Assembly: GCA_964016885.1 (NCBI GenBank)
Contig: OZ024762.1
Location: 14,384,001 to 14,448,000 of the forward strand
DNA: 64,000 bases
DNA from: Eledone cirrhosa
Lineage: Eukaryota
Reading direction: 5' to 3'
Shown here piece after piece: positions 1-44,064 of this stretch. Positions within the stretch are counted from its first letter, which is position 1. Each line of letters starts with the position of its first letter. The notes under the pieces are model-generated. The model saw only the letters and a program-made list of their open reading frames with translations, was not told where the DNA came from and made no database searches. A program made the position numbers and the translations under genes.

Positions 1-145
1 CACACATGTGTATAATACAAACTTACTACTAGATATTGTGTGTACACAGCAGAGAATCTACTTTTTGTATGTAGAGACTCCTCTGTAACATCTAGAAGGC
101 TTATATTTACTACGCTTCTCTATAATAAAAAAAACCCATATATAC

Positions 146-1353
146 GGTTCTAGGACAGGATTCTTCACCATATGAGATGTCATCTGGTGTACCACAGGGA
201 TCTGTTCTTGGTCCTCTTTTGTTTGTGGCATATATTAATGACATAGATGCCAACTTACAGAATACCACGGTACTGAAATATGCAGATGACATCAAGCTGT
301 ACCTTGAAATCAAAAGGACTGATCCTGAAATTTACAACTCTTTCCTACAATCAGACCTGGACACAATGCAGCAATGGATCACAGACTGGCAACTGAAGCT
401 GGCTGTGGACAAGTGTACCACCATGCATTTTGGAAGGAAAAATCCCTCCACAACACTGATATCAAAAAGTCCTCTTGTGAACGTGACCTGGGCATTACTG
501 TCAGCAACGATTTGCGTTGGACAAAGCATGTCTCTAAGATTGTCAAGAAGGCCGAGTGTGTCTTGGCATCACTCAGCAAGACCTTTGTTAGCCGCTCTCC
601 AGCCATCTATTTAAAACTGTATACAGCTATGGTACGACCACACTTGGAATTCGCATCATCAGTCTGGAACCCCTATCTTGCTCAGAACATTGACCTCCTG
701 GAAACTGTTCAGAGACGTGCAACCAAGCGCATACCCTCCATCAGACACCTACCATACTCTGAACGCCTTGCTTCCCTGGGCATGGATTCATTGAAACTCC
801 GACGTCTGGCAATGGACTTGGTGAATACCCACAAAGTTTTTAACCATCTCGCCAATTGCAACCCTGAGCGCCTCTTTGATCTCCATGTGTCTAACACACG
901 TGGACATGCCTACAAGATCAGAAAACAGCACAGCTCCCATGACTTTCGTAGACATTTTTTCACGCTCAGAGTTGCTGAAGCATGGAACAAACTGCCTGCG
1001 TCAGTTGTTAGCTGCCGAGACACTGCATCCTTTAAGACACTCATGCTTCCCGAAATACGCCAAAACTACACCTGATGTACCCCTTCCATACACATGCGCA
1101 CATGTGTGTATCATGACTCGTGCACTGTTCATTTTACTGATGTTTGTGCATTGCCCTATGTACTGTACATGTGACTTTTTTGATGAGTTGTGGTGCACCT
1201 GGGCACTGTACACAATATTTCATTATTATTATATCATGACTCATACACTGTTCATTTTCCTGACATTTGTACATTATTCTATGTACTATACATGCACCTT
1301 TGATGAGTTGTAGTGCACCTGAGCACTGTACACAATAATTTCATTATTATTAT
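146..1353 (+). mobile_element. 5'-truncated CR1-clade LINE (RT C-terminal half and 3' UTR), frameshifted
   Basis: SGVPQGSVLGPLLF and YADD in ORF 177-614; ERDLGI, VRPHLEFASSVWNP, VQRRATK and FFTLRVAEAWNKLP in ORF 374-1075; duplicated 3' UTR motif and (TAT)n tail; TATAC at 141-145 and 1354-1358 as candidate TSD. Confidence 0.92.
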
Positions 1354-1406
1354 TATACTGTAATACCTTATCTAGAGGCATATAAGAAACTGTATTTCAC
1401 AGCTCT

Positions 1407-2894
1407 ATTTCATTTCATTTGAGTTTGAGTCCATGCTCAGGCCAAGTCGAAGACTCCACCCTCAGAGTCTGGTGTGGTTGGATTCTCTGTTTAATTTTGA
1501 CATGTGTAGGAGCGAGTTTGAGTCAGTTTGTGCTCGTTGTGTATATCCTGGGAGATGGGGTTCATTTCTAATGGTGCTTAAGTATCTATCCAGCTGCAAT
1601 TTGAATGATTCCACACTGCATCCTGATAGATTTCTGACATGTACCGGAATGGAGTTGAATAATTGTGCCCCTCGAACCAACAGACTTGACTCTCGCAGGG
1701 TTTTTGCTGGCCAGCCCTTTTGTTGATTGGTGGTAGCTGGCAGCGTCTTCCGTGGCACAGTGAGTGGTAGGTTTTGATACCAAAGTTTGGCACCGTTTGC
1801 TCTATCATTTTCCAAATGTATATAATTCGGTATCGCTCAAATCTTCTTTCTATTGAGTACATCTTCAAGGTTTTGAGTCTTTGCCAATAGTCCAGGTCCC
1901 TCGTTTCTGAGAAGTATGAGGTAAAATTTCTTTGGAGCGATTCCATCTTAGATAGTTGGCCCTTTGTTGTTGGTGACCACAACTGAGAACAGTAGTCAAT
2001 CCTCGGAAGTATCATACTGTTCCAGAGGGTTTTCATTGTTGAGGTATCTCTTGATTTGAAGGTGCGCAAGATCCACCCGCTGTACTTTCTTGCAGTAAGA
2101 CAGACTGAGTCAAGGTGTTCTCTGAATTTTAGGCTGGTTCCCATGTGGATGCCTAAATCTTTCACACACTGTTTTTCCATTATTTGTTGTCCTGATGGGT
2201 TTCTGTAGTTTGTTGTATTTTTCAGATCTTGATCTGTTCCGTAGCGAATTAGTTCAAACTTCTTATCATTGAACAACATGTTGTTTGTTTCCTGCCATTT
2301 GTATATGGTGGTTAGGTCCTTTTGTAAGGCCTCTGTGTCCACCTCGTCTTTGATTTGTCTCATGACCCTGGTGTCATCAGCAAAGGATGAGACGTTGCTG
2401 GTTGTATCTTCATCTATGTCAGAGATGAGGATGAGAAACAGGATCGGGCCAAGTACTGTACCCTGGGGAACACTGCTGGTCACAGGTGATGGTGTTGAAT
2501 GGGTTCCATTCACAGTGACTGTTTGAGTTCTATTTGTAAGGAACTCGTGTATCCATGTACCAACTTTTCCTCCTAGCTTTCGAAGTTTGTGTCCCAGAAT
2601 GCCATGATCTACCTTGGCAAAGTCGAGGTAAATAACATCTGTGTTGTATCCATTCTCTAGATTTTCCAGGATTTGGTCATGGTGTGCCAGTAGTTGGGAA
2701 AGACATGATCTACCTAACCTGAATCCATGCTGATTGCAATTCATCAGATTGTTGGATTCCAGGAACTCAACCAGTTTTCTACGAACCATTCTTTCGAAGA
2801 CCTTGATAATGTGTGATGTCAGTGAGATTGGTCGGTAGTTCTTTGGTTTTGATTTGCTGTCCCCTTTATGTATTGGAGTTATGTTTGCTTCTTT
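1407..2894 (-). mobile_element. 5'-truncated CR1-clade LINE ORF2 (RT), decayed, left-arm copy
   Basis: NYRPISLTS upstream, QHGFR, YLDFAK, VPQGTVLGPILF, FADD in ORF 1578-2789; (GAAAT)n tail. Confidence 0.92.
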
Positions 2895-3949
2895 ATATGT
2901 ATTTCGTATTTATACTCACTCTCCTAAGAAACTAAACTGTTCATGACAAAGAGGTTTAATTTTTGCCTCTAGAAAATTATTGGTGTTAGAGCTGTGTAAT
3001 CTGGATTGTTTTTATTAATACCTTCTGTTTCTTTCCAGGTATGTTGAAGATCTCCGCCAGCTCAACTGAGTGTGTAAATACACACAGTCGTCTCAAGAAA
3101 TAAAATAACTCCAACAACAAAATGTAGTTTATTTATTGATCTTTATTTCACATATAAGTAAGTATATTCTATAGAACATTGTTTTTTATTATATATATAC
3201 ACAGGTAGATCGTTTAACTTCCATTCATATTATATGTATTTAGATACTGTATATATATATAGGAATCAACAGCTGTGTATACACAGTACTCTTCTGTGTA
3301 TATAACTAGTGGATTGTTAAACTTCATAGTAAAACACATGCCTAGAGATAAAAAGGTATTAACATGCGAGAGAATTCAGTTTCTTATATACAGAGAGTAC
3401 GTTTTCTTTCTAGAGCAGAACAAGGTAGTATTAATGTAATTAGTGAGAAACATCCCTCTTGAAAGAAGTTATATATAGAATAGATTAATTAATGTCTATG
3501 TATATATGATACAGTAATCCCAGCAAGTTTATTTCTTTCTGTGTATATAGGTATTCTATATCTCTCTCATACTTACCAGTAAGTATATTAATAAAGAATT
3601 TCATATTATAAACGTTTATATATACAGTATTCTAGTAAGTTTATTTCCTTCTGTATATAGAATAAGTTCGTATTCTATATCTCTCCCAGTATGGATATAG
3701 GAATAGAAGTAGGAATTGAGTTCGAAACATCTTTCATGAAAGAAATGTATATATAATGCAGTATTCTAGTGAGGCCATTTCTTTCTGTATGTATGCATAT
3801 GCCTAGAGACAGAAGGGTGTTAATATGTATGGATTTTATAGAAGTAAGTGTATATATATATATATACACAGGGTTTTAAAGTAATAGTATCCTATAGAAT
3901 ACACATACTTATCTCTGTCTAGACAGAGATAAGTATAACTCCTTAGCTA

Positions 3950-6900
3950 TATTTATATACACACATACATGTATATCCATACATATGTATATATGTACAT
4001 ACATATGTATATATATATATACATACATATGTATGTATATATATACATATGTATGTATATATATATGTATATATACATATGTATGTATATATACATACGT
4101 ATGTATATATACATACGTATGTATATATATACATATGTATGTATATATGTACATATGTATGTATATATGTACATACGTATGTATATATACATACGTATGT
4201 ATTTATATATATACATATGTATGTATATATACGTATGTATATATACATACATATATATGCATACATACGTATGTATGCATACATACGTATGTATACATAC
4301 ACACGTATACATACATATGTATACATACATATGTATGTATATATACATATGTATGTATATATACATATGTATATATACTTATGTATGTATATATACGTAT
4401 GTATATATACATACATATGTATATATACATACGTATATATACATACATATGTATATATACATACGTATGTATACATACGTATGTATACATACATATGTAT
4501 ATATACATACGTATGTATATATACATACGTATGTATACATACGTATGTATATATATACACATATGTATGTATATATACATACGTATGTATATATACGTAT
4601 GTATACATACATATGTATATATACATACGAATGTATGTATACATACATATGTATATATACATACGTATGTCTATATACATATGTATATATACATATGTAT
4701 GTATACATACATATGTATATATACATATGTATATATACATATGTATGTATACATATGTATGTATACATATATACATACATATGTGTATATATACGTATAT
4801 ATACATACGTATATATACACATATGTATGTATATATGTACATACATATGTATGTATATATGTACATACGTATGTATATATACATACGTATGTATTTATAT
4901 ATATACATATGTATGTATATATACGTATGTATATATACATACATACATACACACGTATGTATATATACGTATGTATACATACATATATATACATACATAT
5001 GTATATATACATACATATGTATATATACATACATATGTATATATATATACATACGTATGTATATATACATACATATGTATATATATATACATACGTATGT
5101 ATATATACATACGTATGTATATATACATACGTATGTATATATACATACGTATGTATATATACATACGTATGTATGTATATATACATACATATGTATGTAT
5201 ATATACATACATATGTATATATACATATGTATGTATGTATATATACATACATATGTATATATACATACATATGTATATATACATATGTATGTATATATAC
5301 GTATGTATATATACATACATACGTATGTATACATACATACGTATGTATACATACACACGTATGTATATATACATACATATGTATACATACATATGTATGT
5401 ATATATACATACGTATGTATTTATATATATACATATGTATGTATATATACGTATGTATATATACATACATATATATACATACATACGTATGTATGCATAC
5501 ATACACACGTATACATACATATGTATGTATATATACATATGTATGTATATATACATACATACGTATGTATATATACATACGTATGTATATATACATACGT
5601 ATGTATATATACATACGTATGTATATATACATACATATGTATGTATATATACATATGTATATATACTTATGTATGTATATATACATACATATGTATATAT
5701 ACATACGTATATATACATACATATGTATATATACATACGTATATATACATACGTATGTATATATACATACGTATGTATACATACATATGTATATATACAT
5801 ACGTATGTATATATACATACGTATGTATACATATACACATATGTATGTATATATACGTATGTATACATACATATGTATATATACATACGAATGTATACAT
5901 ACATATGTATATATACATACGTATGTCTATATACATATGTATATATACATATGTATGTATACATACATATGTATATATACATATGTATGTATACATATGT
6001 ATGTATACATATATACATACATATGTGTATATATACGTATATATACATATGTATGTATACATACGTATATATACACATATGTATGTATATATGTACATAC
6101 ATATGTATGTATATATGTACATACGTATGTATATATACATACGTATGTATTTATATATATACATATGTATGTATATATACGTATGTATATATACATACAT
6201 ACATACACACGTATGTATATATACGTATGTATACATACATATGTATATATATATACATACGTATGTATATATACATACATATGTATATATATATACATAC
6301 GTATGTATATATACATACGTATGTATATATACATACATATGTATGTATATATACATACGTATGTATGTATATATACATATGTATGTATATATACATATGT
6401 ATGTATATATACATACATATGTATGTATATATACATACATATGTATATATACATATGTATGTATATATACGTATGTATATATACATACATATGTATATAT
6501 ACATACATATGTATATATACATATGTATGTATATATACATACATACGTATGTATACATACATACGTATGTATACATACATACGTATGTATACATACACAC
6601 GTATGTATGTATACATACATATGTATGTATATATACATACATATGTATGTATATATACATACGTATGTATACATACATATGTATATATATACACATGCAT
6701 ATGTATGTATATATACATATGTATGTATATATACATACGTATGTATATATACATACATATGTATATATACATACGAATGTATGTATACATACATATGTAT
6801 ATATACATACGTATGTCTATATACATATGTATATATACACATATGTATGTATATATGTACATACATATGTACATACGTATGTATATATACATACGTATGT

Positions 6901-9900
6901 ATTTATATATATACATATGTATGTATATATACATACACACGTATGTATATATACGTATGTATACATACATATATATGTATATATACATACATATGTATAT
7001 ATACATACATATGTATATATATATACATACGTATGTATATATACATACGTATGTATATATACATACGTATGTATATATATATACGTATGTATGTATACAT
7101 ACGTATGTATATATACATACATATGTACGTATATATACATACGTATGTATATATGTATATATACGTATGTATATATACATACATACGTATGTATACATAC
7201 ATACGTATGTATACATACACACGTATGTATATATACATACATATGTATACATACATATGTATGTATGTATATATACATACATATGTATGTATATATACAT
7301 ACATATGTATATATACATATGTATGTATATATACGTATGTATATATACATACATATGTATATATACATACATATGTATATATACATATGTATGTATATAT
7401 ACGTATGTATGTATATATACGTATGTATATATACATACATACGTATGTATACATACATACGTATGTATACATACACACGTATGTATATATACATACATAT
7501 GTATACATACATATGTATGTATATATACATACGTATGTATTTATATATATACATATGTATGTATATATACGTATGTATATATACATACATATATATACAT
7601 ACATACGTATGTATGCATACACACGTATACATACATATGTATACATACATATGTATGTATATATACATATGTATGTATGTATATATACATACGTATGTAT
7701 ATATACATACGTATGTATATATACATACATATGTATGTATATATACATATGTATATATACTTATGTATGTATATATACGTATGTATATATACATACGTAT
7801 GTATATATACATACGTATATATACATACGTATGTATATATACATACGTATGTATACATACATATGTATATATACATACGTATGTATATATACATACGTAT
7901 GTATACATATACACATATGTATGTATATATACATACGTATGTATATATACGTATGTATACATACATATGTATATATACATACGAATGTATACATACATAT
8001 GTATATATACATACGTATGTCTATATACATATGTATATATACATATGTATGTATACATACATATGTATATATACATATGTATGTATACATATGTATGTAT
8101 ACATATATACATACATATGTGTATATATACGTATATATACATATGTATGTATACATACGTATATATACACATATGTATGTATATATGTACATACATATGT
8201 ATGTATATATGTACATACGTATGTATATATACATACGTATGTATTTATATATATACATATGTATGTATATATACGTATGTATATATACATACATACATAC
8301 ACACGTATGTATATATACGTATGTATACATACATATATATACATACATATGTATATATACATACATATGTATATATATATACATACGTATGTATATATAC
8401 ATACATATGTATATATACATATGTATGTATATATACATACATACGTATGTATACATACATACGTATGTATACATACATACGTATGTATACATACATACGT
8501 ATGTATACATACATATGTATGTATATATACATACATATGTATGTATATATACATACGTATGTATACATACATATGTATATATATACACATGCATATGTAT
8601 GTATATATACATATGTATGTATATATACATACGTATGTATGTATACATACATATGTATATATACATACGAATGTATGTATACATACATATGTATATATAC
8701 ATACGTATGTCTATATACATATGTATATATACACATATGTATGTATATATGTACATACATATGTACATACGTATGTATATATACATACGTATGTATTTAT
8801 ATATATACATATGTATGTATATATACATACACACGTATGTATATATACGTATGTATATATACGTATGTATACATACATATATATGTATATATACATACAT
8901 ATGTATATATATATACATACGTATGTATATATACATACGTATGTATATATACATACGTATGTATATATATATACGTATGTATGTATACATATGTATGTAT
9001 ATATACGTATGTATATATACATACATACACACGTATGTATATATACATACATATGTATGTATATATACATATGTATGTATATATACATACATATGTATGT
9101 ATATATACATATGTATGTATATATACATACATATGTATATATATATACATACGTATGTATATATACATACGTATGTATATATACATACATATGTATGTAT
9201 ATATACATATGTATGTATATATACATATGTATATATACATATGTATATATACGTATGTATATATATATACATACGTATGTATATATACATACGTATGTAT
9301 ACATACATATGTATATATACATACGTATGTATACATACATATGTATATATATACACATGCATATGTATGTATATATACATACGTATGTATACATACGTAT
9401 ATATACACATATGTATGTATATATGTACATACATATGTATGTATATATGTACATACGTATGTATATATACATATGTATGTATATATACATACATACACAC
9501 GTATGTATATATACATACGTATGTATGTATACATACATACGTATGTATACATGCATATGTATGTATATATACATACGTATGTATATGTACATACGTATGT
9601 ATATATACATACGTATGTATGTATACATACGTATGTATATATACATACATATGTATATATACATATGTACGTATGTATACATATATATATACATACATAC
9701 GTATGTATATATACATACGTATGTATACATACATATGTATATATATACACATGTGTATATATACACATATGTATGTATATATACATATGTATGTATATAT
9801 ACATACGTATGTATATGTACATACATATGTATATATACGTATGTATACATACATATGTATATATACATACGAATGTATGTATACATATGTATACATACGT

Positions 9901-11161
9901 ATATATACATACGTATGTATATATACATACATATGCATATATACATACATATGCATGTATATATATACATATGTATATATACATACGTATGTATATATAC
10001 ATACATATATATACATACATACATATGTATATATACATACGTATATATATACATACGAATGTATGTATACATATGTATATATACATACACATGTATGTGT
10101 ACATACATATGTATTTATACGTATGTATGTATATATACATACATATGTATATATACATACGTACGTATATACATACATATGTATGTATATATACATATGT
10201 ATGTGAAGATATACATACATATGCATGTATATATACATACGTATGTGTGTATGTATATATACATATGTATGTATACATACGTATGTATGTAGATATATAC
10301 ATACGTATGTATACATACATATGTATATATATACATACAAATGTATGTATATATATACATACATACGTATGTATATATATACATACGTATGTATATATAT
10401 ACATACGTATGTATATATACATACGTATGTATATATATACATACGTATGTATATATATACATATGTATGTATATATATATACATACATATGTATGTATAC
10501 ATACATATGTATATATACATGCGTATGTATATATATACATACGTATGTATATATACATACATGTATATATATACATATGTATACATACGTATATGTATGT
10601 ATATATACACATGTATTTATGTATATATACATACACATGTATGTATACATACATACGTATATATACATACACACGTATGTATGTATATATACATATGTAT
10701 GTATACATACATCCTTATGTATATATATATACAAACATATACTTACGTATATATATACACGTATGTATATATACATACATATGTATGTATGTATACATAC
10801 ATCTGTATATATACATACGTATATATATACATACGTATGTATACAAACATATGTATACATACATACATATGTATACATACATACGTATATATACATATGT
10901 ATACATACATATGTATATATACATACGTATGTATGTATGTTTATGTATACATACATATGTATATATACATACGTATGTATATATACATATGTATACATAC
11001 ATATGTATATATATACATACATATGTATATATACACATACATATGTATGTATATATACGTATGTATGTATATATTTATACATACACACACATATGTATAC
11101 ATACATACATATGTATATATACACATACGTATGTATACATACATATGTATATATATACATG
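3950..11161. repeat. ~7.2-kb compound (TA/CA/TG) microsatellite with higher-order structure
   Basis: Almost pure purine-pyrimidine alternation built from words such as CATACGTATG and TACATATGTA. Confidence 0.98.
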
Positions 11162-12859
11162 TTTAACTCCTTAACTATATTTATATAATACAGTCGTCTA
11201 GAGATATAAGGGTATTAATGTATGTAGGTTTATATCTATATACCTGTGTAGTGTAACTTCTAAATCTACAATGAAGATATGCTTTATATACACGAAAGTG
11301 TTTATATGGTGAGTATGCCTGTCTAGAGGAGAACAGGGTAACTGTGTACATATGGTTCTACATACTGTACTCTATTGAACACAACTTCTATATATAATGG
11401 GGGTACATTATAGACATGAAGGAAGCTATGTGTGTATGTATAGAACATTAGGTTTCTTTGTATTTATACAGTTAGCTCTCTTGCTTCTTAGGAAGCCTGT
11501 ACACGTTCTACAGTGAGATGCTTATACACAACTAGAAGAACAATAGTAGTAGTTTCCTAAGAGACGTATGTGTAGTATCTAGCGAGGATGTATTGATATG
11601 TATGTACAGATCACAACCTCTTATCTTATATATGTATGATGTTCACTTCCAGGTTTCTACATACACGTGTATAGTATAAGGAGACACACACAATGTGGGT
11701 TTAGATATATTCTATATAATACAGTTACTTATATACAGAAGTGTCTACATAGATGGAGATGGCTTGTTTATCTAGGTAATAACATTTCTCCTGTATAGAG
11801 GGGATTTATTTTTATAATATGAAACTAGTTAATAGTGACGAAAGGTTTTTGTCTTCCTACAGTGGAAGAGGTGTATATAGTTATATGTCTAGTGTGTGTG
11901 TGTACATACAGGGAATAAATAATAAAGCAACAAAGAAAAAGACTGGTTTATTCTTTTATTTCACAATTTATTTACCTTTCTTCTTGAAATAGGGATGTAG
12001 TTGTCTCCAGGTCTGGTGCTTCTTTCTTAGGAATAAAAAATAGGTTAGTTGTGTATATATAAAGGTTTAGTTTTGTATCTACTGACGAACGTTTATATAT
12101 GGATGATGTAGCTATCATGATGCTAGAAGTAAGGAGTTTTACGGCAGAGGAATGGAGCTACCATGCTTCGTTAGATATAAAATATAGCTGTATGGTTTAG
12201 CTTCTATATACATATGTTTAGTTTCGTGTCTATTATTCCAGTATAAACAAGATTGTATATTGCGCCTCATGAGTATCTGTTGAGATAAAAGGGAGACCGT
12301 TTATATATGAATATAGCTTCATGTGTACGTATGTCCCTAAGATTCTTCCTCTACATGGTGAATATTTAGAATAAATATGCCTGAAGTGTTTATGTATTTA
12401 CGTGAAAAAGTGTCTTCTTGTATATAGAATATCTGTCAGTGTGTATTCAGATATAAACGATGGTATAAGGTTTATATACAGAAGATAATAAAACGTGTAT
12501 AGAGAGGAAGCTTGGTTATATTTCCTTACAAGTATGTATCGAGAGAGGATTTAGTTGTCTCATAATAAAGTAAAGTAACATGTTGGAAGAGGTAGCTGTG
12601 TGTGTATACAGATCATGTTTAGTTTTGTTTCATAATAAAGGAGGGTAACATGTATGTTTAGTTAGAAGAGGTAGCTGCGTATATATTTAGTTATGATTCT
12701 CAAAATATATACGTTTAAATAGGAAGAGTGTTTGTATATATAAATGTAGCTAGATGTGAGTGTTTAGAATAAATTTAAAAGACATTACAACAAGTTATGT
12801 ATATTTCTAACGACAGGCGGTTTCTTTGAGATGATAGTGAAGTGTACTTTTGTGTCTCA

Positions 12860-13545
12860 ATAATATCTGTGAGTGTGTATATACGGCAAATAAGACTTTA
12901 CATACCTCTTGACACGAACGTAATATCCAAATATCAGTAATAGTCCCAGAGTAAATAGAATGATGTTACCGCTTCAATACACTGAAAATAAATGTCAACA
13001 AAGGAAGAAGAGTTCCACAAACCGGAAGTAGTTCAATCACAACAAAGGGCAAATAATTCAAATCAAAGGGAGATAACTCTCGTCAAATTTTTTAGCAAAA
13101 ACTCATGCGAGGGGGAGAGCAGGCCAGCATAAAGCCAGCCTGCAACGGTCCCGGCCGACCCCCGCAACGATTCGAACTTCAGACACGATCGAGTGGTCAG
13201 CCATACCGAAGTACGACATCGAAGCCAGAAACGCTACGTGCAGTGCCACGCACAAGCCGCAATTCTACAGAGTCAAATAGTCATACTTATAGCTAAAGTT
13301 TTCTTTCTTTTTAAAAAAAAAAAAGAAAGCGAGATAACACGACATATTCCGAGTGTTATCTAGCTTTCTTTCCGTTTCTCTCTATATATAATTATAACAT
13401 GATATATAGCCATTAAGGAACTGCTAGTATTTTGTACATATATAACGGGATATGTAGAAATAGGGAGTCAAAAGTTTGACCATTTTCGCCAAATTCTACG
13501 TAAATAAGCCTCGGATTTTTGCCTACTTCTCAGACATAAGATAGG
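12860..13545. repeat. GC-rich repeated module, type A, with downstream hairpin (copy 1)
   Basis: Near-identical to ~33590-34300 (inverted) and ~44330-45033 (direct). Confidence 0.85.
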
Positions 13546-13589
13546 GAGGAGGGTCACCTTATATTCGAGTACATCTATTCTTGTTAGAC

Positions 13590-13732
13590 TAGACCGGTAT
13601 CATCATGGGTAGAGCCTACCAGGTGCTACTGCGTTGAACGAGACTAAGGCTGTGATGGTCCTCAGGGCACTGCTGTCAATTGTCTTTGTGAAGGGCCACG
13701 TTTCTGCTCCAAAGAGGAGAAGACTGATGCAT
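13590..13732 (-). mobile_element. RTE-like LINE fragment; mirror copy at 33360-33545 (+)
   Basis: Translates to LLFGAETWP, the conserved post-RT motif; this copy lacks ~40 bp present in the mirror. Confidence 0.55.
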
Positions 13733-14491
13733 CTTTTCAGAACAATTAATATGTAGGTAACATAGCCTTAGAGAGATCTGTATTTGTAATAGTTAGTATC
13801 GATTTGGGGAATCTTAAGACCATGATTCCAATCATCAATATATGTATTGATTAAACCTAAATATAGTATATAAAGAAGTGGATCTTAAAATATGCAATGA
13901 TAGTGTCGAGAGAAGGCTTAGTTAGTTACTTCTAACAATGTACCACTATGAATAAGACAGAAGGCGGTGTATGTAGATAGAATGTTTACTTTTCCTGAGT
14001 ATGAAGGGGTTTTAGTTATTATTCTTAGTAAAAAGACGGTTATATTATACATATACGTCTCTAACATTCCTCCTGTATATAAAGGGTAGTAAAATATATT
14101 CTTGTGTCTCAGGAATAACTACGTGCTTATCGATGAATTTAAGGGACAACTAAAACATTACATACCTCTTTAGAAGAATGAAGGTGTATATATAAATGTA
14201 GGTTTATATGTGTATATATATCTAGATAGGAAACGTTTCTTCCAGTGTATGGATTAGAGAGGTGAATGCATACACTAAAGAATGTTAATATATATATCTA
14301 AGACTGTATTTTCGAGTGTTTAGCAATAAATTAAAATATACATGGCAAATAAAGCGTTCGTATAGGTAAATTAGAGGGTATTTTACCTCAGCTAAAGAAC
14401 ATTTATATATATAAATCTAGTTTTGTGTGTGTATTTAGGTTTAAATAAAACAATATGTACGTCTCTAAAATCTTTCTGTATATAGAATAAT

Positions 14492-14575
14492 TGTTTCTAC
14501 TTTTGACACAAGGCCAGCAATTATCCAGTGTATAACTGGTACTTTATTTTATCGACCCCATAAGGATGAAAGGCA
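14492..14575 (-). mobile_element. SINE fragment with Meta-domain-like core; mirror at ~32517-32600 (+)
   Basis: GCCTTTCATCCTTATGGGGTCGATAAAATAAAGTACCAG resembles the MetaSINE central domain (recalled, not searched). Confidence 0.6.
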
Positions 14576-14589
14576 TATAGAATAATGTA

Positions 14590-15020
14590 TGTCTGTGAGT
14601 GTATATACGGCAAATAAAACATTACATACCTCTCACCATTAGTATAATATCCAGACTGATTCTATCAAATTACACGAGTAAATCCAAACAATGTTAACAG
14701 TTCAATTCAAAAAAGAAAAATGACAACAAACGAGAAGAGTTCCAATCAGGGGCAAGTAATTCAAACGAAGGGGGATAACTCTCAGCGAATTTTTTAGTAA
14801 AACTCAATGCGTGGTGGGGACGCAAGCCAGCGATTCGATCTTCAGACAGATAGAATGGCCATGCCATACCGAACTACGACAGCGAAGCCCGAAACGTTAC
14901 GTGCAGCGTCACGCAAGAGCACAATTCTACTAAGTAAATTAGTCATACTTATAGGTAGAATTTTATTTATTTAAATAAAATATATATAGAAACGGAATGA
15001 AGACGAGATAACTGAGGGCG
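14590..15020. repeat. Diverged paralogue (type B) of the GC-rich module; mirror at ~32050-32500
   Basis: Shares TGTGAGTG..TATACGGCAAATAA, CATACCTC, GAAGAGTTCCA, GGGGATAACTCTC, CCATACCGAA.TACGACAGCGAAGCC and AGTCATACTTATAG with type A. Confidence 0.8.
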
Positions 15021-17210: not shown

Positions 17211-17215
17211 CTCTT

Positions 17216-21404: not shown

Positions 21405-21405
21405 C

Positions 21406-27092: not shown

Positions 27093-27094
27093 TA

Positions 27095-32100: not shown

Positions 32101-33589
32101 AATAAAATTCTACCTATAAGTATGACTAATTTACTTAGTAGAATTGTGCTCTTGCGTGGCGCTGCACGTAACCTTTCAGGCTTCGCTGTCGTACTTCGGT
32201 ATGGCATGGTCATTCTATGTGTCTGAAGATCGAACCGCTGCGGGGCCAGCCCGGCTTTATGCTGGCCTGCGTCCCCACCTCGCATTGAGTTTTATTAAAA
32301 AATTCGCTGAGAGTTATCCCCCTTCGTTTGAATTACTTGCCCCTGATTGGAACTCTTCTCGTTTGTTGTCATTTTTCTTTATTGAATTGAACTGTTAACA
32401 TCGTTTGCATTTACTCGTGTAATTTGATAGAATCAGTCTGGATATTATACTAATGATGAGGGGTATGTAATGTTTTATTTGCCGTATATACACTCACAGA
32501 CATACATTATTTTATATGCCTTTCATCCTTATGGGGTCGATAAAATAAAGTACCAGTAATACACTGGATAATTGCTGGTTTTGTGTCAAAAGTAGAAACA
32601 ATTATTCTATATACAGAAAGATTTTAGAGACGTACATATTGTTTTATTTAAACCTAAATACACAGACAAAACTAGATTTATATATATATAAATGTTCTTT
32701 AGCTGAGGTAAAATACCCTCTAATTTACCTATACGATCGCTTTATTTGCCATGTATATTTTAATTTATTGCTAAACACTCGAAAATACAGTCTTAGATAT
32801 ATATTAACATTCTTTAGTGTATGCATTCACCTCTCTAATCCATACACTGGAAGAAACGTTTTCTATCTAGATATATATACACATATAAAGCTACATTTAT
32901 ATATACACCTTCATTCTTCTAAAGAGGTATGCAATGTTTTAGTTGTCCCTTAAATTCATCGATAAACACGTAGTTATTCCTGAGACACAAGAATATATTT
33001 TACTACCCTTTATATACAGGAGGAATGTTAGAGACGTATATGTATAATATAACCGTCTTTTTACTAAGAATAATAACTAAAACCCCTTCATACTTAGGAA
33101 AACTAAACATTCTATCTACATACACCGGCTTCTGTCTTATTCATAGTGGTACATTGTTAGAAGTAACTAACTAAGCCTTCTCTCGACACTATCATTGCAT
33201 ATTTTAAGATCCACTTCTTTATATACTATATTTAGGTTTAATCAATACATATATTGATGATTGGAATCATGGTCTTAAGATTACCCAAATCGATACTAAC
33301 TATTACAAATACAGAGCTGTCTAAGGCTATGTTACCTACATATTAATTGTTTTGAAAAGATGCATCAGTCTTCTCCTCTTTGGAGCAGAAACGTGGCCCC
33401 TCACAAAGACGATTGACAGCAGAGCCCTGAGGACCATCTAAAACATCAGATGGGACCACCACAGTGACGCATCAGCCCACAGCCTTACTCTCGTTCAACG
33501 CAGTAGCACCTGGTAGGCTCTACCCATGATGATGCCGGTCTAGTCTAACAAGAATAGATGTACTCGAATATAAGGTGACCCTCCTCCCT

Positions 33590-34300
33590 ATCTTATGTCT
33601 GAGAAGTGTGCAAAAATCCGAAGCTTATTTACGTAGAGTTTAAAGTTGGCGAAAATGGTCAAACTATTGACTCCCTATATAAGTCAACCCGTTTCTACAT
33701 ATCCCGTTATATATGTACAAAATACTAGCAGTTCCTTAATGGCTATATGTCCTGTTATATTTATATAGAGAGAAACTGAAAGAAAGCGAGATAACACTCG
33801 GAATATGTCGTGTTATCTCGCTTTCTTTCCGTTTCTTTTTTTTTTAAAAAGAAAGAAAACTTTAGCTATAAGTATGACTATTTGACTCTGTAGAATTGCG
33901 GCTTGTGCGTGGCGCTGCACGTAGCGTTTCTGGCTTCGCTGTCGTACTTCGGTATGGCTGACCACTCGATCGTGTCTGAAGTTCGAATCGTTGCGGGGGT
34001 CGGCCGGGACCGTTGCAGGCTGGCTTTATGCTGGCCTGCTCTCCCCCTCGCATGAGTTTTTGCTAAAAAATTTGACGAGAGTTATCTCCCTTTGATTTGA
34101 ATTATTTGCCCTTTGTTGTGATTGAACTACTACCGGTTTGTGGAACTCTTCTTCGTTTGTTGACATTTATTTTCAGTGTATAGAAGCGGTAACATCATTC
34201 TATTTACTCTGGGACTATTACTGATATTTGGATATTACGTTCGTGTAAAGAGGTATGTAAAGTCTTATTTGCCGTATATACACACTCACAGATATTATTG
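33590..34300. repeat. GC-rich module type A, right-arm inverted copy
   Basis: Reverse complement of 12860-13545. Confidence 0.85.
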
Positions 34301-35976
34301 AGACACAAAAGTACACTTCACTATCATCTCAAAGAAACCGCCTGTCGTTAGAAATATACATAACTTGTAATGTCTTTTAAATTTAGAATAAACACTCACA
34401 TATAGCTACATTTATATACACAAACACTCTTCCTATTTAAACGTATATATTTTGAGAATCATAACTAAATATATACGCAGCTACCTCTTCTAACTAAACA
34501 TACATGTTACCCTCCTTTATTATGAAACAAAACTAAACATGATCTGTATACACACACAGCTACCTCTTCCAACATGTTACTTTACTTTATTATGAGACAA
34601 CTAAATCCTCTCTCGATACATACTTGTAAGGAAATATAACCAAGCTTCCTCTCTATACACGTTTTATTATCTTCTTTATATAAACCTTATACCATCGTTT
34701 ATATCTGAATACACACTGACAGATATTCTATATACAAGAAGACACTTTTTCACGTAAATACATAAACACTTCAGGCATATTTATTCTAAATATTCACCAT
34801 GTAGAGGAAGAATCTTAGGGACATACGTACACATGAAGCTATATTCATATATAAACGGTCTCCCTTTTATCTCAACAGATACTCACGAGGCGCAATATAC
34901 AATCTTGTTTATACTGGAATAATAGACACGAAACTAAACATATGTATACAGAAGCTAAACCATACAGCTATATTTTATATCTAACGAAGCATGGTAGCTC
35001 CATTCCTCTGCCGTAAAACTCCTTACTTCTAGCATCATGATAGCTACATCATCCATATATAAACGTTCTTCAGTAGATACAAAACTAAACCTTTATATAT
35101 ACACAACTAACCTATTTTTTATTCCTAAGAAAGAAGCACCAGACCTGGAGACAACTACATCCCTATTTCAAGAAGAAAGGTAAATAAATTGTGAAATAAA
35201 AGAATAAACCAGTCTTTTTCTTTGTTGCTTTATTATTTATTCCCTGTATGTACACACACACACTAGACATATAACTATATACACCTCTTCCACTGTAGGA
35301 AGACAAAAACCTTTCGTCACTATTAACTAGTTTCATATTATAAAAATAAATCCCCTCTATACAGGAGAAATGTTATTACCTAGATAAACAAGCCATCTCC
35401 ATCTATGTAGACACTTCTGTATATAAGTAACTGTATTCTATAGAATATATCTAAACCTACATTGTGTGTGTCTCCTTATACTATACACGTGTATGTAGAA
35501 ACCTGGAAGTGAACATCATACATATATAAGATAAGAGGTTGTGATCTGTACATACATCCTCGCTAGATACTACACATACGTCTCTTAGGAAACTACTACT
35601 ATTGTTCTTCTAGTTGTGTATAAGCATCTCACAGTAGAACGTGTACATGCTTCCTAAGAAGCAAGAGAGCTAACTGTATAAATAGAAAGAAACCTAATGT
35701 TCTATACATACACACATAGCTTACTATAATATACCCCCATTATATATAGAAGTTGTGTTCAATATAGTACAGTATGTAGAACCATATGTTCACAGTTACC
35801 CTGTTCTCCTCTAGACAGGCATACTCACCATATAAACACTTTCGTGTATATAAAGAATATCTTCATTGTAGATTTAGAAATTACACTACACAGGTATATA
35901 GATATAAACCTACATACATTAATACCCTTATATCTCTAGAGTACTGTATTATATAAATATAGTTAAGGAGTTAAAC

Positions 35977-38900
35977 ATGTATATATATATATACGTATGT
36001 ATATATACATACATATGTATGTATATACATATGTATATATATACATACGTATGTATATATATACATATGTATGTATATATACATACGTATGTATACATAC
36101 ATTACATATGTATATATATACATATGTATATATACGTATGTATATATACATATGTATGTATACATATGTATGTATGTATATATACATACGTATGTATATA
36201 TACATACACGTATGTATAAATACATATGTTTGTATATATGTATGTTTATGCATACATATGTATATATACATACATACATATACAGATGTATGTATACATA
36301 CATATGTATATACATACGTATGTATATATACATACATATGTATGTATATATACATACATAAGGATGTATGTATACATACATATGTATATATATATACATA
36401 TGGATGTATATATACATACATACATAAGTATGTATATATATATATACATGTATGTATATATACATAAATACATGTGTATGTATATATACATACATATACA
36501 TGTATGTATATATATATACATATGTATATACACACACATGCATGTATACGTACATGTGTATGTATATATACATACGTATATATATATACATACGCATGTA
36601 TATATATACATACGTATGTATATATACACATACGTATGTATATATATACATACGTATGTATATATATACATACGTATGTGTATATATACATACACATGTA
36701 TGTATATATACATATGTATGTATACATACGTATGTATGTATACATACGTATGTATATATACAGACGTATATATACATACGTATGTATGCATATATACATA
36801 CATATGTATGTATATATACATACATATGTATGTATATATACATACGTATGTATACATACATATGTATGTATATATACATATGTATACATACGTATGTATA
36901 TATATACATACATAAGTATATATATATACATACATGTGTGTGTGTATATACATATGTATATACACACATATGCATGTATACATACATGTATGTATATATA
37001 TCCGTATGTATGTATACATACATGTGTATGTATAAATACATGTGTATGTATATATATACATGCATATACGTATATATACATATGTATATATATACATATG
37101 TATGTATATACACACATATGCATGTATACATACATGTGTATGTATACATACATACGTATGTATATATATACATACGCATGTATATATACAGTTGTATGTA
37201 TATATACATACAAATGCATGTATATATACATACATACATATGTATATACATACATATGTATATATATACATACATATGTATATATATACATACGTATGTA
37301 TATATACATATGTATGTATATATACATACATATGTATGCATATATACATACGTATGTATGTACATATACATACATAAGTATGTATACATACGCATGTATA
37401 TATATACGTACGTATGTATATATACATATGCATATATACATACGTATACATACATATGTATGTATACATACATATGTATGTATATATACATATGGATGTA
37501 TATATACATACATATGTATATATATATATACATGTATGTATATATACATGTGTATGTATATATACATGCATATACGTATGTATATATATATACATATGTA
37601 TATACACACACATGCATGTATACGTACATGTGTATGTATATATACATACGTATGTATATATATACATACGCATGTATATATATACATACGCATGTATATA
37701 TATACATACGCATGTATATATATACATACGTATGTGTATATATACATACACATGTATGTATATATACATATGTATGTATACATACATACGTATGTATACA
37801 TACGTATGTATGCATATATACATACATATGTATGTATATATACATATGTATACATACGTATGTATATATATATATACATACATAAGTATATATATATACA
37901 TACATGTGTGTGTGTATATACATATGTATATATATATACATACATATGCATGTATACATACATGTGTATATACATACATTATGTATGTATACATACATGT
38001 GTATGTATAAATACATGTGTATGTATATATACATACATATGTATGTATATATATACATGCATATACGTATATATACATATGTATATATATACATATGTAT
38101 GTATATACACACATATGCATGTATACATACATGTGTATGTATACATACATACGTATGTATATATATACATACGCATGTATATATACAGTTGTATGTATAT
38201 ATACATACATATGTATATATATACATATGCATGTATATATATATACATACATATGTATATACATACATATGTATATATATACATACATATGTATATATAT
38301 ACATACGTATGTATATATACATATGTATGCATATATACATACGTATGTATGTACATATACATACATAAGTATGTATACATACGTATGTATATATATACAT
38401 ACGTATGTATATATACATACATATGTATATATATACATATGTATATATATACATACGTATGTATATATACATATGTATGTATACATACATATGTATATAT
38501 ACATATGTATGCATATATACATACGTATGTATGTACATATACATACATAAGTATGTATACATACGTATGTATATATATATACGTACGTATGTATATATAC
38601 ATACATATGCATATATACATACGTATGTATACATACATATGTATGTATACATACATATGTATATATATATACATACATATGTATATACATGTATGTATAT
38701 ATACATATGTATGTATATATATACATGCATATACGTATGTATATATATATATACATATGTATATACACAGACATGCATGTATACATACATGCGTATGTAT
38801 ATATACATACGTATGTATATATATATACATACGTATGTATATATATACATACGCATGTATATATATACATACGTATGTATATATACGTATGTATATATAT

Positions 38901-40953
38901 ACATACGTATGTGTATATATACATACGTATGTGTATATATACATACACATGTATGTATGTATATATACATATGTATGTATACATACGTATGTATATATAC
39001 AAACGTATATATACATACGTATGTATGCATATATACATACATATGTATGTATATATACATACGTATGTATACATACATATGTATGTATATATATGTATAC
39101 GTATGTATATATATATATACATACATAAGTATATATATATACATACATGTGTGTGTGTATATACATATGTATATATATATACATATTTATATACACACAT
39201 ATGCATGTATACATACATGTATATACACATACGTATGTATATACATACATTATGTATGTATATATATCCGTATGTATGTATACATACGTGTGTATGTATA
39301 AATACATGTGTATGTATATATACATACATATGTATGTATATATATACATGCATATACGTATATATATATACATATGTATGTATATACACACATATGCATG
39401 TATACATACATACGTATGTATATATACAGTTGTATGTATATATACATACATATGTATATATATACATATGCATGTATATATATACATACGTATGTATATA
39501 TACATATGTATGTATATATACATACATATGTATATATACATATGTATGCATATATACATACGTATGTATGTACATACATAAGTATGTATACATACGTATG
39601 TATATATATACGTACGTATGTATATATACATACATATGTATATATATACATACATATGTATACATATACATACGTATGTATATATACATATGTATGTATA
39701 TATACATATGTATGTATATATACATATGTATGTATATATACATACGTACGTATGTATATATACATACATATGTATGTATACATACATATGTATGTATACA
39801 TACGTATGTATGTATACATACGTATGTATATATACATACGTATGTATATATACATACATATGTATATACATACATATGTATATATATATACATACATACG
39901 TATGTATATATATACATACATAAGTATATATATGCATGTATACATACATGTGTATATATATACGTATGTATACATACATGTGTATGTGTATATACGTATG
40001 TATACATACTATATATATACATACATATGTATGTATATATACATACACATGTATGTATACATACATACGGATGTATGTATACATACATGTATATATATAT
40101 ACATATGTATGTATATACATGTATGTATATACACATACGTATGTGTGTATATATACATACATATGTATATATATACATACATAAGGATGTATATATACAT
40201 ACATATGTATGTATATACACATACATATATGTGTATATACATACATATGCATATCCGTATGTATACATACTATATATATATATACATACATATGTATGTA
40301 TATATACATATGTATATATATACATACGTATGTATAGACATACATATGTATGTATGTATATATATATACATATGTATGTATACATACATGTGTATGTATA
40401 TATACATATGTATGTATATATATACATACGCATGTATATATATACATATGTATGTATATATACATCCTTATGTATGTATATATACATATGTATATATATA
40501 TACATACGTATGTATATATACATACATATGTATGTATATATGCATACATATGTATGTATATATGCATACATACGTATGTAATATACATATGTATATGTAC
40601 ATACATATGTATGTATATATACACACATATGTATGTATACATACATATGTATGTATATATACATACGTATGTATATATACATACATATGTATATATATAT
40701 ACATATGATTTACATATACGTATGTATATATACATACATATGTATATATACATATGATCTACATATACATACGTATGTATATATACATACATATGTATAT
40801 ATATACATATGTATGTATATATACATACATATGTATGTATATATATACATATGTATGTATATATACATATGTATATATATGTATGTATATATATGTATAT
40901 ATACATACATCTGTATGTATGTATACATACATATGTATGTATATATATATACA
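35977..40953. repeat. ~5.0-kb compound microsatellite at the mirror position of 3950-11161
   Basis: Same flanks in reverse complement (TAACTCCTTAACTATATTTA / TAAATATAGTTAAGGAGTTA). Confidence 0.98.
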
Positions 40954-41929
40954 TAAATATAGCTAAGGAGTTAAACTTTCTTCACTAGACAGAGATAAGT
41001 ATGTGTATTCTATAGGATACTATTACTTTAAAACCCTGTGTATATATATATACACTTACTTCTATAAAATCCATACATATTAACACCCTTCTATCTCTAG
41101 GCATATGTATACATACAGAAAGAAATGGCCTCACTAGAATACTGCATTATATATACATATCTTTCATGAAAGATGTTTTGAACTGAATTCATACTTCTAT
41201 TCCTATATACAGAAGGAAATAAACTTACTAGAATACTGTATATATACACATTATAAACGTTTATAATATGAAACTTCTTTATTAATATACTTGCTGGGAT
41301 TACTGTATCATATATACACAGACATTAATTAATCTATTCTATATATATACACTTCTTTCAAGAGGGATGCTTCTCACTAATTACATTAATACTACCTTGT
41401 TCTCCTCTAGAAAGAAAACGTACTCTCTGTATATAAGAAACTGAATTCTCTCGCATGTTAATACCTTTTTATCTCTAGGCATGTGTTTTACTATGAAGTT
41501 TAACAATCCACTAGTTATATACACAGAAGAGTACTGTGTATACACAGCTGTTGATTCCTATATATATACAGTATCTAAATACATATAATATGAATGGAAG
41601 TTAAATGATCTACCTGTGTATATATATATATATAATAAAAAACAATGTTCTATAGAATATACTTACTTATATGTGAAATAAAGATCAATAAATAAACTAC
41701 ATTTTGTTGTTGGAGTTATTTTATTTCTTGAGACGACTGTGTGTATTTACACACTCAATTGAGCTGGCAGAGATCTTCAACATACCTGGAAAGAAACAGA
41801 AGGTATTAATAAAAACAATCCAGATTACACAGCTCTAACACCAATAATTTTCTAGAGGCAAAAATTAAACCCCTTTGTCATGAACAGTTTAGTTTCTTAG
41901 GAGAGTGAGTATAAATACGAAATACATAT

Positions 41930-43450
41930 AAAGAAGCACACATAACTCCAATACATAAAGGGGACAGCAAATCAAAACCAAAGAACTACCGACCAATCTC
42001 ACTGACATCACACATTATCAAGGTCTTCGAAAGAATAGTTCGTGGAAAACTGGTTGAGTTCCTGGAATCCAACAATCTGATGAATTGCAATCAGCATGGA
42101 TTCAGGTTAGGTAGATCATGTCTTTCCCAACTACTGGCACACCATGACCAAATCCTGGAAAATCTAGAGAATGGATACAACACAGATGTTATTTACCTCG
42201 ACTTTGCCAAGGCATTTGACAAGGTAGATCATGGCATCCTGGGACACAAACTTCGAAAGCTAGGAGTAGGAGGAAAAGTTGGTACATGGATCCATGAGTT
42301 CCTTACAAATAGAACTCAAACAGTCACTGTGAATGGAACCCATTCAACACCATCACCTGTGACCAGCAGTGTTCCCCAGGGTACAGTACTCGGCCCGATC
42401 CTGTTTCTCATCCTCATCTCTGACATAGATGAAGATACAACCAGCAACGTCTCATCCTTTGCTGATGACACCAGGGTCATGAGACAAATCAAAGACGAGG
42501 TGGACACAGAGGCCTTACAAAAGGACCTAACCACCATATACAAATGGCAGGAAACAAACAACATGTTGTTCAATGATAAGAAGTTTGAACTAATTCGCTA
42601 CGGAACAGATCAAGATCTGAAAAATACAACAAACTACAGAAACCCATCAGGACAACAAATAATGGAAAAACAGTGTGTGAAAGATTTAGGCATCCACATG
42701 GGAACCAGCCTAAAATTCAGAGAACACCTTGACTCAGTCTGTCTTACTGCAAGAAAGTACAGCGGGTGGATCTTGCGCACCTTCAAATCAAGAGATACCT
42801 CAACAATGAAAACCCCCTGGAACAGTATGATACTTCCGAGGATTGACTAGTTCTCAGTTGTGGTCACCAACAACAAAGGGCCAACTATCTAAGATGGAAT
42901 CGCTCCAAAGAAATTTTACCTCATACTTCTCAGAAACGAGGGACCTGGACTATTGGCAAAGACTCAAAACCTTGAAGATGTACTCAATAGAAAGAAGATT
43001 TGAGCGATACCGAATTATATACATTTGGAAAATGATAGAGCAAAAGGTGCCAAACTTTGGTTTCAAAACCTACCACTCACTGCGCCACGGAAGACGCTGC
43101 CAGCTACCATCAATCAACAAAAGGGCTGGCCAGCCAGCAAAAACCCTGCGAGAGTCAAGTCTGTTGGTTCGAGGGACACAACTATTCAACTCCATTCCGG
43201 TACATGTCAGAAATCTATCAGGATGCAGTGTGGAATCATTCAAATTGCAGCTGGATAGATACTTAAGCACCATTAGAGATGAACCCCATCTCCCAGGATA
43301 TACACAACGAGCACAAACTGACTCAAACTCGCTCCTACACATGTCAAAATTAAACAGAGAATCCAACCTGGCAACCACACCAGACTCTGAGGGTGGAGTC
43401 TTCGACTTGGCCTGAGCATGGACTCAAACTCAAATGAAATGAAATGAAAT
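41930..43450 (+). mobile_element. 5'-truncated CR1-clade LINE ORF2, right-arm copy, frameshift at ~42848
   Basis: ORFs 42080-42850 and 42843-43415; YLDFAKAFDKV, FADD; (GAAAT)n tail. Confidence 0.92.
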
Positions 43451-44064
43451 AGAGCTGTGAAATACAGTTTCTTATATGCCTCTAGATAAGGTATTACTGT
43501 ATATATGGGTTTTTTTTTATTATAGAGAAGGGTAGTAAATATAAGCCTTCTAGATGTTACAGAGGAGCCTCTACATACAAAAAGTAGATTCTTTGCTGTG
43601 TACACACAATATCTAGTAGTAAGTTTCTATATATATAGAAGTGTTATAACTCCCTTGTTATATAAATATTGTACACACGTGTACAATATTTATATAACAA
43701 GGGAGTGTATTCTATAGAATGTCTTCTACATACAAAAAATAGATGCCTTGATAAAATATCCTCGGGAAAAGTAGTAGAGAATAGGGTTTTAACTTTGTCT
43801 TGTGTGTATGTAGATGCTGCATATATATACAATACTGCGAAGTAAGTGTGTTTATGTATAGAGAGATCGTCTGTATTCTATACACTACAGTTTCTTATAT
43901 AGCTGTGTATGATGAGGGTATATACCTTTCTTCTAGGTAAGTATATACAGAGAAGGTGTATATGTAATAGAGATACGATTATAATATAAATATATAGTTG
44001 TTAAAAAGGTATATGAAGTGTGAAAGAGAGAGTGGTGATGCCGAGGTAACTCGACGTAGAAATT

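What the first reader, a model, noticed from the sequence alone, without database searches (positions are those of the whole stretch)
17..43626. ~43.6-kb imperfect palindrome with independently diverged arms
Seen: every landmark from the window start to ~21.6 kb recurs in reverse complement from ~21.7 to 43.6 kb around a spacer of only 123 bp. The arms differ by scattered substitutions, small indels, repeat copy numbers and a 1.2-kb LINE. Known: long palindromes with tiny spacers are usually unstable and arise by foldback priming or breakage-fusion. Inference: either a stably retained old inverted duplication, which could yield hairpin RNA or small RNAs against the transposons it contains, or two haplotypes misjoined through the central repeats. 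The left arm may extend beyond the window.
Basis: partly seen in the sequence, partly recalled or inferred. Interest (0 to 1): 0.78.

Follow-up and report, generated by a model that had tools for sequence, protein, structure and literature searches.

The report
Family of giant self-copying palindromes
This 47-kb mirror-image stretch is one of at least six giant, essentially non-coding palindromes of one repeat family on a small chromosome of this animal genome assembly, and their arms are likely re-copied from one another from time to time, this copy probably being one that has long gone without such a refresh.

Summary
The palindrome is in the assembly and is larger than reported: window -1502 to 45188 (46.7 kb), ending in TA microsatellites, with 1.92% substitutions between arms. 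About 60 kb of flank on each side is not colinear, so the arms are not two alleles. It is not a one-off. The arm is a mosaic duplicon (at least 24-26 copies, mainly contigs C22, C23, C25) of decayed transposon pieces and an NFX1 exon fragment. Five other C23 loci are palindromes of the same family, four with arms only 0.02-0.19% apart, while loci differ by 2-3%. Locus-specific LINE insertions, and in the window a terminal truncation, are mirrored on both arms. In the youngest copies the identical tract stops inside the 88-bp satellite arrays beside the core; these arrays derive from fused mariner ends. Best reading (0.55): occasional long-tract re-copying of one arm from its mirror. This works like sex-chromosome palindrome conversion, but without genes and in a dispersed family. 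No reads or RNA could be examined, so assembly effects and hairpin-RNA function are untested.

The parts
1..21604 (+). Left arm (continues to -1502, outside the window; G000:C23:14382498)
21728..45188 (-). Right arm, reverse complement of the left; 1.92% substitutions
21605..21727 (.). 123-bp spacer, shared by the family; 6.5% mean divergence between modules
21441..21891 (.). Core inverted repeat: 164-bp arms around the spacer; 36 such modules in the fetched loci on C22, C23, C24 and C26
20035..21371 (+). 88-bp satellite array, 15 units; unit = fused 5' and 3' ends of a mariner element
21960..24826 (-). 88-bp satellite array, 33 units
25846..27797 (+). Second core module in the right arm only (TA repeat, 13-unit array, core 27106-27555, one unit); same junctions in the paralog at C23:16.26 Mb
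25272..25845 (-). Duplicated arm piece (mirror of 18855-19429) beside the second module
19754..19962 (+). Short repeat fragment, LINE-like by recall only, mirrored at 24937-25145
19318..19553 (+). Older copy (81%) of the core arm plus half of the spacer
17985..18276 (-). 5' fragment of a mariner element (terminal repeat plus transposase start; stop codon in most family copies); mirror near 29025-29147
16073..16210 (-). Decayed NFX1 R3H exon: splice acceptor lost, cut before the donor at a mariner end; mirror near 30851-30967
12843..13540 (+). Segment with older inverted paralogs at each arm's outer end (44307-45032; -1356..-639), marking a second, older symmetry axis
3948..11160 (.). TATA/TACA minisatellite, left (7.2 kb)
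35980..40961 (.). TATA/TACA minisatellite, right (5.0 kb)
1417..2915 (-). LINE (RVT_1) on both arms (mirror about 41910-43449) and in the 16.24-Mb paralog; absent at this site from the other family loci compared
149..1353 (+). 5'-truncated LINE (RVT_1) with a TTA tail and a short duplicated target, left arm only; inserted after the last whole-arm copy
43649..43706 (.). 58-bp hairpin, complete only in the right arm
45033..45188 (.). Genome-wide short repeat that caps both arms at the same truncation point (mirror about -1502..-1357)
45189..46769 (.). TA-rich microsatellite at the palindrome's right end (left counterpart -2509..-1510)

Best explanation
The window holds one member of a family of giant palindromes built from a non-coding duplicon around a shared satellite-flanked core, and one arm is likely re-copied from its mirror in occasional long tracts. 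SHOWN: a ~20-kb mosaic arm occurs at many loci; several loci are palindromes whose arms match each other far better than any other locus; locus-specific insertions and truncations sit on both arms; the identical tract ends inside the 88-bp arrays and leaves the core arms different. INFERRED: a break in or near one 88-bp array (or elsewhere in an arm) is repaired using the opposite arm as template, by foldback or strand invasion, in any array register. Synthesis runs 8-20 kb outward and rejoins the old arm or a TA microsatellite. The 123-bp diverged spacer likely keeps the structure stable between events. The window's copy was last copied whole after the 1.5-kb LINE and the terminal truncation. 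Since then it has gathered 1.9% substitutions, a left-only LINE and a right-only second core, with only patchy exchange. New loci likely arise by ectopic duplication among the small chromosomes rather than by transposition. No gene function is evident.
For: Arm-to-arm substitutions: C23:9.37-9.42 Mb 11/15,718 (0 in the two inner blocks, 7,890 bp); 11.78-11.82 Mb 23/12,082 (0 in the inner 7,757 bp, 0.53% outside); 3.94-3.97 Mb 17/10,140; 17.59-17.61 Mb 1/5,963; 7.37-7.39 Mb 151/6,078, graded 0.4 to 3.3% outward. Between-locus means are 2.0-2.7%. In those four tight loci the partner arm is the nearest neighbour in every segment where both arms were recovered. The longest exact minisatellite matches between arms rank the same way: 443, 157, 98 bp, and 62 bp in the window against 49-72 bp between loci. 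Private variants are shared from the outer end of the two 88-bp arrays and hardly or not at all from the inner end in the 9.4, 11.8 and 7.4-Mb loci, and at the outermost unit in the 10.0-Mb locus; none in the window. The 9.4-Mb core keeps 6 differences in 228 bp. Mirrored insertions: the window's 1.5-kb LINE, and a different LINE insertion in the 9.4 and 11.8-Mb loci. Both window arms are truncated at the same point where the paralog runs on. The 9.4-Mb left flank keeps a remnant of a longer, older arm.
Against: No reads were seen, so near-zero divergence could be helped by consensus building. Only 5 of 21 other arm-bearing loci fetched are two-armed palindromes; several were fetched too short to judge, and the first loci were picked because inverted pairs showed. 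The window's own arms (1.9%) are about as far apart as two random paralogs, and each is often closer to the 16.24-Mb paralog than to its partner. Array sharing is absent or sporadic in 6 of 10 array pairs. The 17.6-Mb palindrome lacks the core yet has identical arms, so the core is not required. One genome cannot separate a reset from a new birth, and no break site or enzyme was identified.
Confidence: 0.55

Rival explanations
1. Steady short-tract arm-to-arm gene conversion, as on mammalian sex chromosomes, keeps the arms alike; loci differ only in conversion rate.
For: Derived sites shared among left arm, right arm and paralog (25 LR, 20 RD, 10 LD of 55) come in runs, 28 same-type neighbours against 19.4 expected, p = 0.01. 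Core arms diverge about half as much between modules (2.9-3.2%) as the spacer (6.5%), as reported for human Y palindromes (PMC8600007, passages).
Against: There are zero-difference tracts of 6-8 kb, a colinear 3.8-kb minisatellite, mirrored kb-size insertions and a mirrored terminal truncation, and a step from 0 to 0.53% at 11.8 Mb. The window and the 7.4-Mb locus are not held near identity.
Confidence: 0.15
2. Each palindrome is born anew from a single-arm copy by foldback priming at the short inverted core after a break, followed by hairpin replication and a rescuing rearrangement; arm divergence is then simply its age.
For: Many loci show a single or truncated arm. The 9.4-Mb palindrome ends sharply at a 5-bp match while its right arm runs on into family sequence. 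Short inverted repeats beside a break give inverted duplications in yeast and mammalian cells (PMC7999016 passages; PMC10622511 abstract).
Against: An older arm remnant lies beyond the 9.4-Mb left end. Two-step divergence at 11.8 and 7.4 Mb needs repeated events at one locus. The route passes through a dicentric chromosome, which would be costly in a germ line (inference).
Confidence: 0.15
3. Assembly effects: alleles misjoined at the centre, a haplotype switch at the centre of a real palindrome, or arms made identical by consensus.
For: No reads could be examined. Assembly gaps abut 3 of the fetched family loci. About 2% could be an allelic distance in repeats.
Against: The flanks are not colinear over about 60 kb, nor is the paralog's flank. 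There is no N inside the window's palindrome or four of the five others. In 'identical' loci the satellite arrays still differ in length and variants, which a collapsed path walked twice would not give.
Confidence: 0.1
4. The whole palindrome is a giant foldback transposon moved as one unit.
For: The core module looks like Tetris/foldback elements: tandem repeats inside long inverted repeats around a small middle (PMC4079207, section 10). It forms tandem clusters with the spacer in both orientations.
Against: Outer ends differ at every locus examined and no target duplication was seen at 4 of 4. No transposase frame lies in the arms. Nine Crypton-type loci share no core sequence within 1.5 kb.
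Confidence: 0.05

Closest known systems
Sex-chromosome palindromes under arm-to-arm gene conversion (human Y P1-P8; mammalian X; willow W)
   Same: Arms over 10 kb, arm identity above 99% in 4 loci, locus-specific changes on both arms, spacer diverging faster than arms (PMC3403216 and PMC8600007 passages; 10.1101/800185 and PMC7023750 seen only as listings).
   Different: No intact gene in the arms; a dispersed family sharing one centre; tiny spacer; arm divergence from 0.02 to 2.5%; apparent tracts of 8-20 kb ending in a satellite. Sex linkage was not tested.
Foldback elements that seed satellite DNA (Tetris of Drosophila virilis)
   Same: Inverted repeats with an internal tandem array and an inner domain around a non-coding middle; arrays expand to kb size (PMC4079207 abstract and section 10; here).
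   Different: No conserved outer terminus or 8-10-bp target duplication was found. The arrays are two mirrored mariner-derived miniature elements, and the symmetry runs on for 20 kb.
Break-induced foldback inverted duplication at short inverted repeats (yeast, mammalian cells)
   Same: A long palindrome centred on a short inverted repeat whose own arms keep their differences (PMC7999016 passages, PMC10622511 abstract).
   Different: Here it is heritable, interstitial and repeated at many loci, with signs of more than one round per locus.
Pack-type elements and mosaic segmental duplicons carrying gene fragments
   Same: A host exon with its intron flank (NFX1) is embedded among transposon pieces and multiplied (PMC6431247 passages).
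   Different: No bounding termini, and palindromic organisation.

Membership tests
Arm-to-arm homogenised palindromes (Y/X/W type) | Arms over about 10 kb in inverted orientation around a spacer | tested here: met
Arm-to-arm homogenised palindromes (Y/X/W type) | Arm identity above 99% | tested here: inconclusive
   Not met in the window (98.1%) or the 7.4-Mb locus; met in 4 sister loci
Arm-to-arm homogenised palindromes (Y/X/W type) | Arms closer to each other than to homologous arms elsewhere; derived changes on both arms | tested here: met
   Met for 4 sister loci; in the window only the mirrored LINE, the truncation and 25 LR-derived sites
Arm-to-arm homogenised palindromes (Y/X/W type) | Arms carry expressed multicopy genes | tested here: not met
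   121 frames from the non-satellite arm scanned: only a broken R3H exon passed its cut-off; expression not examined
Arm-to-arm homogenised palindromes (Y/X/W type) | Location on a sex chromosome | not testable with these tools
   No sex-specific depth data
Foldback transposons (FB, Tetris) | Long inverted repeats with internal tandem repeats and a non-coding middle | tested here: met
Foldback transposons (FB, Tetris) | Conserved outer termini with target-site duplication | tested here: not met
   Ends differ at 4 of 4 palindromes; array outer ends fall into several junction types
Tc1/mariner-derived miniature element (88-bp unit only) | Sequence from both ends of a mariner that encodes a DDE transposase | tested here: met
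   87% and 89% matches to the 5' and 3' ends of C8:29.29 Mb, whose 360-aa frame hits Transposase_1 and HTH_48
Crypton / tyrosine-recombinase element | Association with a DUF3504 recombinase frame | tested here: not met
   9 loci, none with core sequence within 1.5 kb
Hairpin-RNA / small-RNA locus | Transcription through the centre and phased small RNAs | not tested
   No RNA data examined; Rfam gave 0 hits at gathering thresholds, tRNA scan 0

The most novel reading that the evidence does not exclude
A gene-free, self-renewing palindromic duplicon: breaks focused at its mariner-derived satellite (possibly cut in trans by mariner transposase at the two inward-facing terminal repeats) trigger whole-arm re-synthesis, so the family refreshes and spreads itself across the small chromosomes, picks up host exons such as NFX1 R3H, and may supply long hairpin RNA or a short R3H peptide.
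Probability: 0.12. Interest if true: 0.8.

Novelty: new variant of a known kind. Interest (0 to 1): 0.5.

Why it matters
Arm-homogenised giant palindromes are known mostly from sex chromosomes, where they are explained by selection to protect genes. Here a gene-free family shows an age series (0.02 to 2.5% arm divergence) on one chromosome, with tract ends falling in a transposon-derived satellite. If reads confirm it, this is a natural system for measuring how palindromes are reset, stabilised and lost without genic selection, and a likely source of inversions and assembly gaps on the small chromosomes. The window's own copy, taken alone, is an old and mostly drifting member.

Tried and rejected
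Allelic misjoin: flanks not colinear. The 16.24-Mb copy as a stray allele of the right arm: its 50-kb flank matches neither window flank beyond dispersed repeats; it does end at an assembly gap. RNA genes: none. Protein genes: the 121-frame scan gave R3H above cut-off and four weak hits below cut-off, which I discarded; the 20-frame scan gave only retroelement-type domains (RVT_1, GIY-YIG, PHD). Functional R3H micro-gene: first estimate omega 0.26, p = 0.012. With the family's own mutation spectrum and more copies it became omega 0.43, 10 synonymous and 15 non-synonymous changes, p = 0.036-0.051; two copies are frameshifted and one has a stop among about 28. This is a weak hint only. Crypton link: none. 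Whole-unit transposition: no shared ends or target duplication. Pfam did not recognise the two short mariner-like and RT-like fragments; the mariner one was identified through full-length relatives. The Atlas added nothing beyond R3H, and the PDB match to yeast FAP1 was weak, E = 0.094. No earlier scan findings. Read depth, spanning reads and RNA were not examined.
Full report
1. Observation. The window is G000:C23:14384001-14448000 in a 2.996-Gb assembly. I take the animal to be an octopod mollusc from a recalled SINE motif, the TA-rich microsatellites and a C2H2 cluster; no call tested this. The palindrome runs from -1502 to 45188 (46.7 kb) and ends in TA microsatellite on both sides. The arms differ by 253 substitutions in 13,174 bases (1.92%; 1.4-2.4% in five blocks, 3.4% in one 209-bp block) and 47 indels, with no long identical tract. 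The asymmetries are a left-only LINE at 149-1353 with a clean empty site opposite, a right-only second core module with a 0.5-kb duplication, and array lengths. The innermost spacer is 123 bp.

2. Not two alleles. If the arms were haplotypes, their flanks would mirror each other. Over 60 kb left and 59 kb right they share only dispersed repeats. There is no gap inside the palindrome. Reads were not examined, so a haplotype switch at the centre of a real palindrome is not excluded.

3. A family. Arm segments hit dozens of places at 93-99% (40 of 1099 candidates scored). An arm-specific mariner piece has 24 copies at 90% or better, 20 on C23 and 4 on C22. By my count 26 of 34 R3H matches are arm copies on C22, C23, C25 and one small contig. 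The core hits C23, C24 and C26 (40 of 332 scored). I fetched 26 other loci: 21 carry arm sequence and 5 carry only core modules. Five of the 21 are two-armed palindromes: C23:9.37-9.42 Mb (43 kb), 11.78-11.82 (32 kb or more), 3.94-3.97 (28 kb or more), 17.59-17.61 (15 kb or more, cut by a gap, core deleted) and 7.37-7.39. The rest are single-armed, truncated, gapped or were fetched too short. The first loci were chosen because inverted pairs were visible, so 5 of 21 is not a genome-wide rate.

4. Anatomy. The arm is a mosaic with no intact gene. It holds a piece of the NFX1 R3H exon with upstream intron, 79% identical over 303 bp to an intact exon at C26:5.68 Mb. That exon lies downstream of NF-X1 zinc-finger exons. 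In the arm the acceptor is lost and the exon is cut at a mariner end. Constraint on the remaining 46-codon frame is weak (omega 0.43, p about 0.04-0.05; two frameshifts and one stop among about 28 copies). The 88-bp satellite is a fusion of the 5' end (87%) and 3' end (89%) of a full-length mariner, so each array is a miniature mariner with an amplified interior. Between two mirrored arrays lies the core: 164-bp arms and the spacer. Across 36 modules, core arms differ by 2.4% within a module and 2.9-3.2% between modules, and spacers by 6.5%. Each long arm also has an older inverted duplication around its minisatellite, a second axis.

5. Arms track each other within loci. Arm-to-arm substitutions are 0.07, 0.19, 0.17 and 0.02% in four loci, and 2.5% and 1.9% in the 7.4-Mb locus and the window, against 2.0-2.7% between loci. 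Minisatellite exact matches give the same ranking (443, 157, 98, 62 bp; 49-72 between loci), and the arrays still differ in length, so the tight loci are not one path walked twice. Insertions private to a lineage sit on both arms, as does the window's terminal truncation. In the 9.4-Mb locus the inner 7.9 kb has no difference and the outer array units are mirrored, while the inner units and the core (6 of 228 bases) are not. Outer-unit sharing also shows at 11.8, 7.4 and 10.0 Mb; the other 6 of 10 array pairs show none or only sporadic matches. The 11.8-Mb locus steps from 0 to 0.53%, and the 7.4-Mb locus grades from 0.4 to 3.3% outward. The 9.4-Mb left flank keeps a remnant of a longer arm, so that palindrome predates its last copy.

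6. The window's history (order inferred). The 1.5-kb LINE and the terminal truncation came first, then the last whole-arm copy. After that came the second core in the right arm, shared with the paralog at 16.24-16.26 Mb, and the left-only LINE. Against this simple tree, 55 polarised sites split 25 left+right, 20 right+paralog and 10 left+paralog, in runs (p = 0.01). That indicates patchy exchange; homoplasy and conversion of the paralog by other copies are not excluded. By distance alone the window's arms are no closer than two paralogs.

7. Mechanism. Best (0.55): rare long-tract copying of one arm from the other after a break, entering in the 88-bp array in arbitrary register and ending in the old arm or a TA microsatellite. 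The pattern is shown; the break, the template use and the spread by ectopic duplication are inferred. Spacers of 52 bp did not stall eukaryotic forks in the review passages read (PMC7999016), which fits persistence with 123 bp. Rivals: short-tract conversion (0.15), repeated new births by foldback (0.15), assembly effects (0.10), giant transposon (0.05). The core-less but identical 17.6-Mb locus shows that the core is not needed.

8. Relation to known systems. It works like sex-chromosome palindromes (PMC3403216 and PMC8600007, passages) but fails the gene-content feature, and the window itself fails the 99% identity feature. The core resembles Tetris (PMC4079207, abstract and section 10) but lacks fixed termini and target duplications. 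Foldback duplication is described in PMC10622511 (abstract), and gene-fragment capture in PMC6431247 (passages). Large autosomal palindromes exist (PMC13688818, listing only). Searches returned no description of such a family in cephalopods. An Octopus vulgaris repeat annotation has no occurrence of 'palindrom', 'foldback' or 'satellite' in its main text (PMC13282606, passages; its supplement was not read and could bear on this). The library lacks most subscription papers.

9. Verdict. Observation confirmed and extended; interpretation partly supported; new variant of a known kind; interest 0.5. Function is not shown, and reads are the decisive missing test.

Noticed in passing
window 46770-47954: Small separate palindrome (47124-47954, 94.8%) built from a 310-bp repeat, between TA arrays.
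   Followed up: no
window 61046-62598: 147-bp perfect inverted repeat pair (61046-61192, 62452-62598) around a frame with a weak GIY-YIG hit; further retroelement frames at 55383-56864 (RT, GIY-YIG) and 57529-58602 (RT, PHD).
   Followed up: no
window 62879-63078: 200-N assembly gap, outside the palindrome.
   Followed up: no
window 48185-48793: A 600-bp repeat bounded by TA arrays, with 95-98% copies in both flanks and near C23:16.23 Mb.
   Followed up: partly
G000:C26:5647000-5682000 (L125-L129): Multi-exon NFX1 gene, donor of the R3H piece (79% over 303 bp); followed by a C2H2 zinc-finger cluster and two core modules about 34 kb downstream.
   Followed up: yes
G000:C15:4994715-5015067 (L122-L124); C22:13.49 Mb; C1622: Older relatives of the inner arm (74-85%), also with the R3H piece; on C15 three copies at a 10-kb period.
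   Followed up: partly
G000:C26:19.92-19.96 Mb; C24:5.92-5.94 and 4.38-4.40 Mb; C23:4.67-4.68 Mb: Tandem clusters of 3-8 core modules without long arms; spacer in both orientations in some clusters; 0% core arm difference in all 8 on C26.
   Followed up: partly
G000:C23:6.40-6.41 Mb; C22:13.11-13.12 Mb: Inverted pairs at 97.9-98.6% around the second (minisatellite) axis, so both axes have been homogenised at times.
   Followed up: partly
G000:C23:10.37-10.42 Mb: Direct tandem duplication of about 28.7 kb containing an arm, 98-99.8% identical.
   Followed up: no
L159-L167: Nine DUF3504 (Crypton-type recombinase) loci in the genome, unrelated to the palindrome core.
   Followed up: partly
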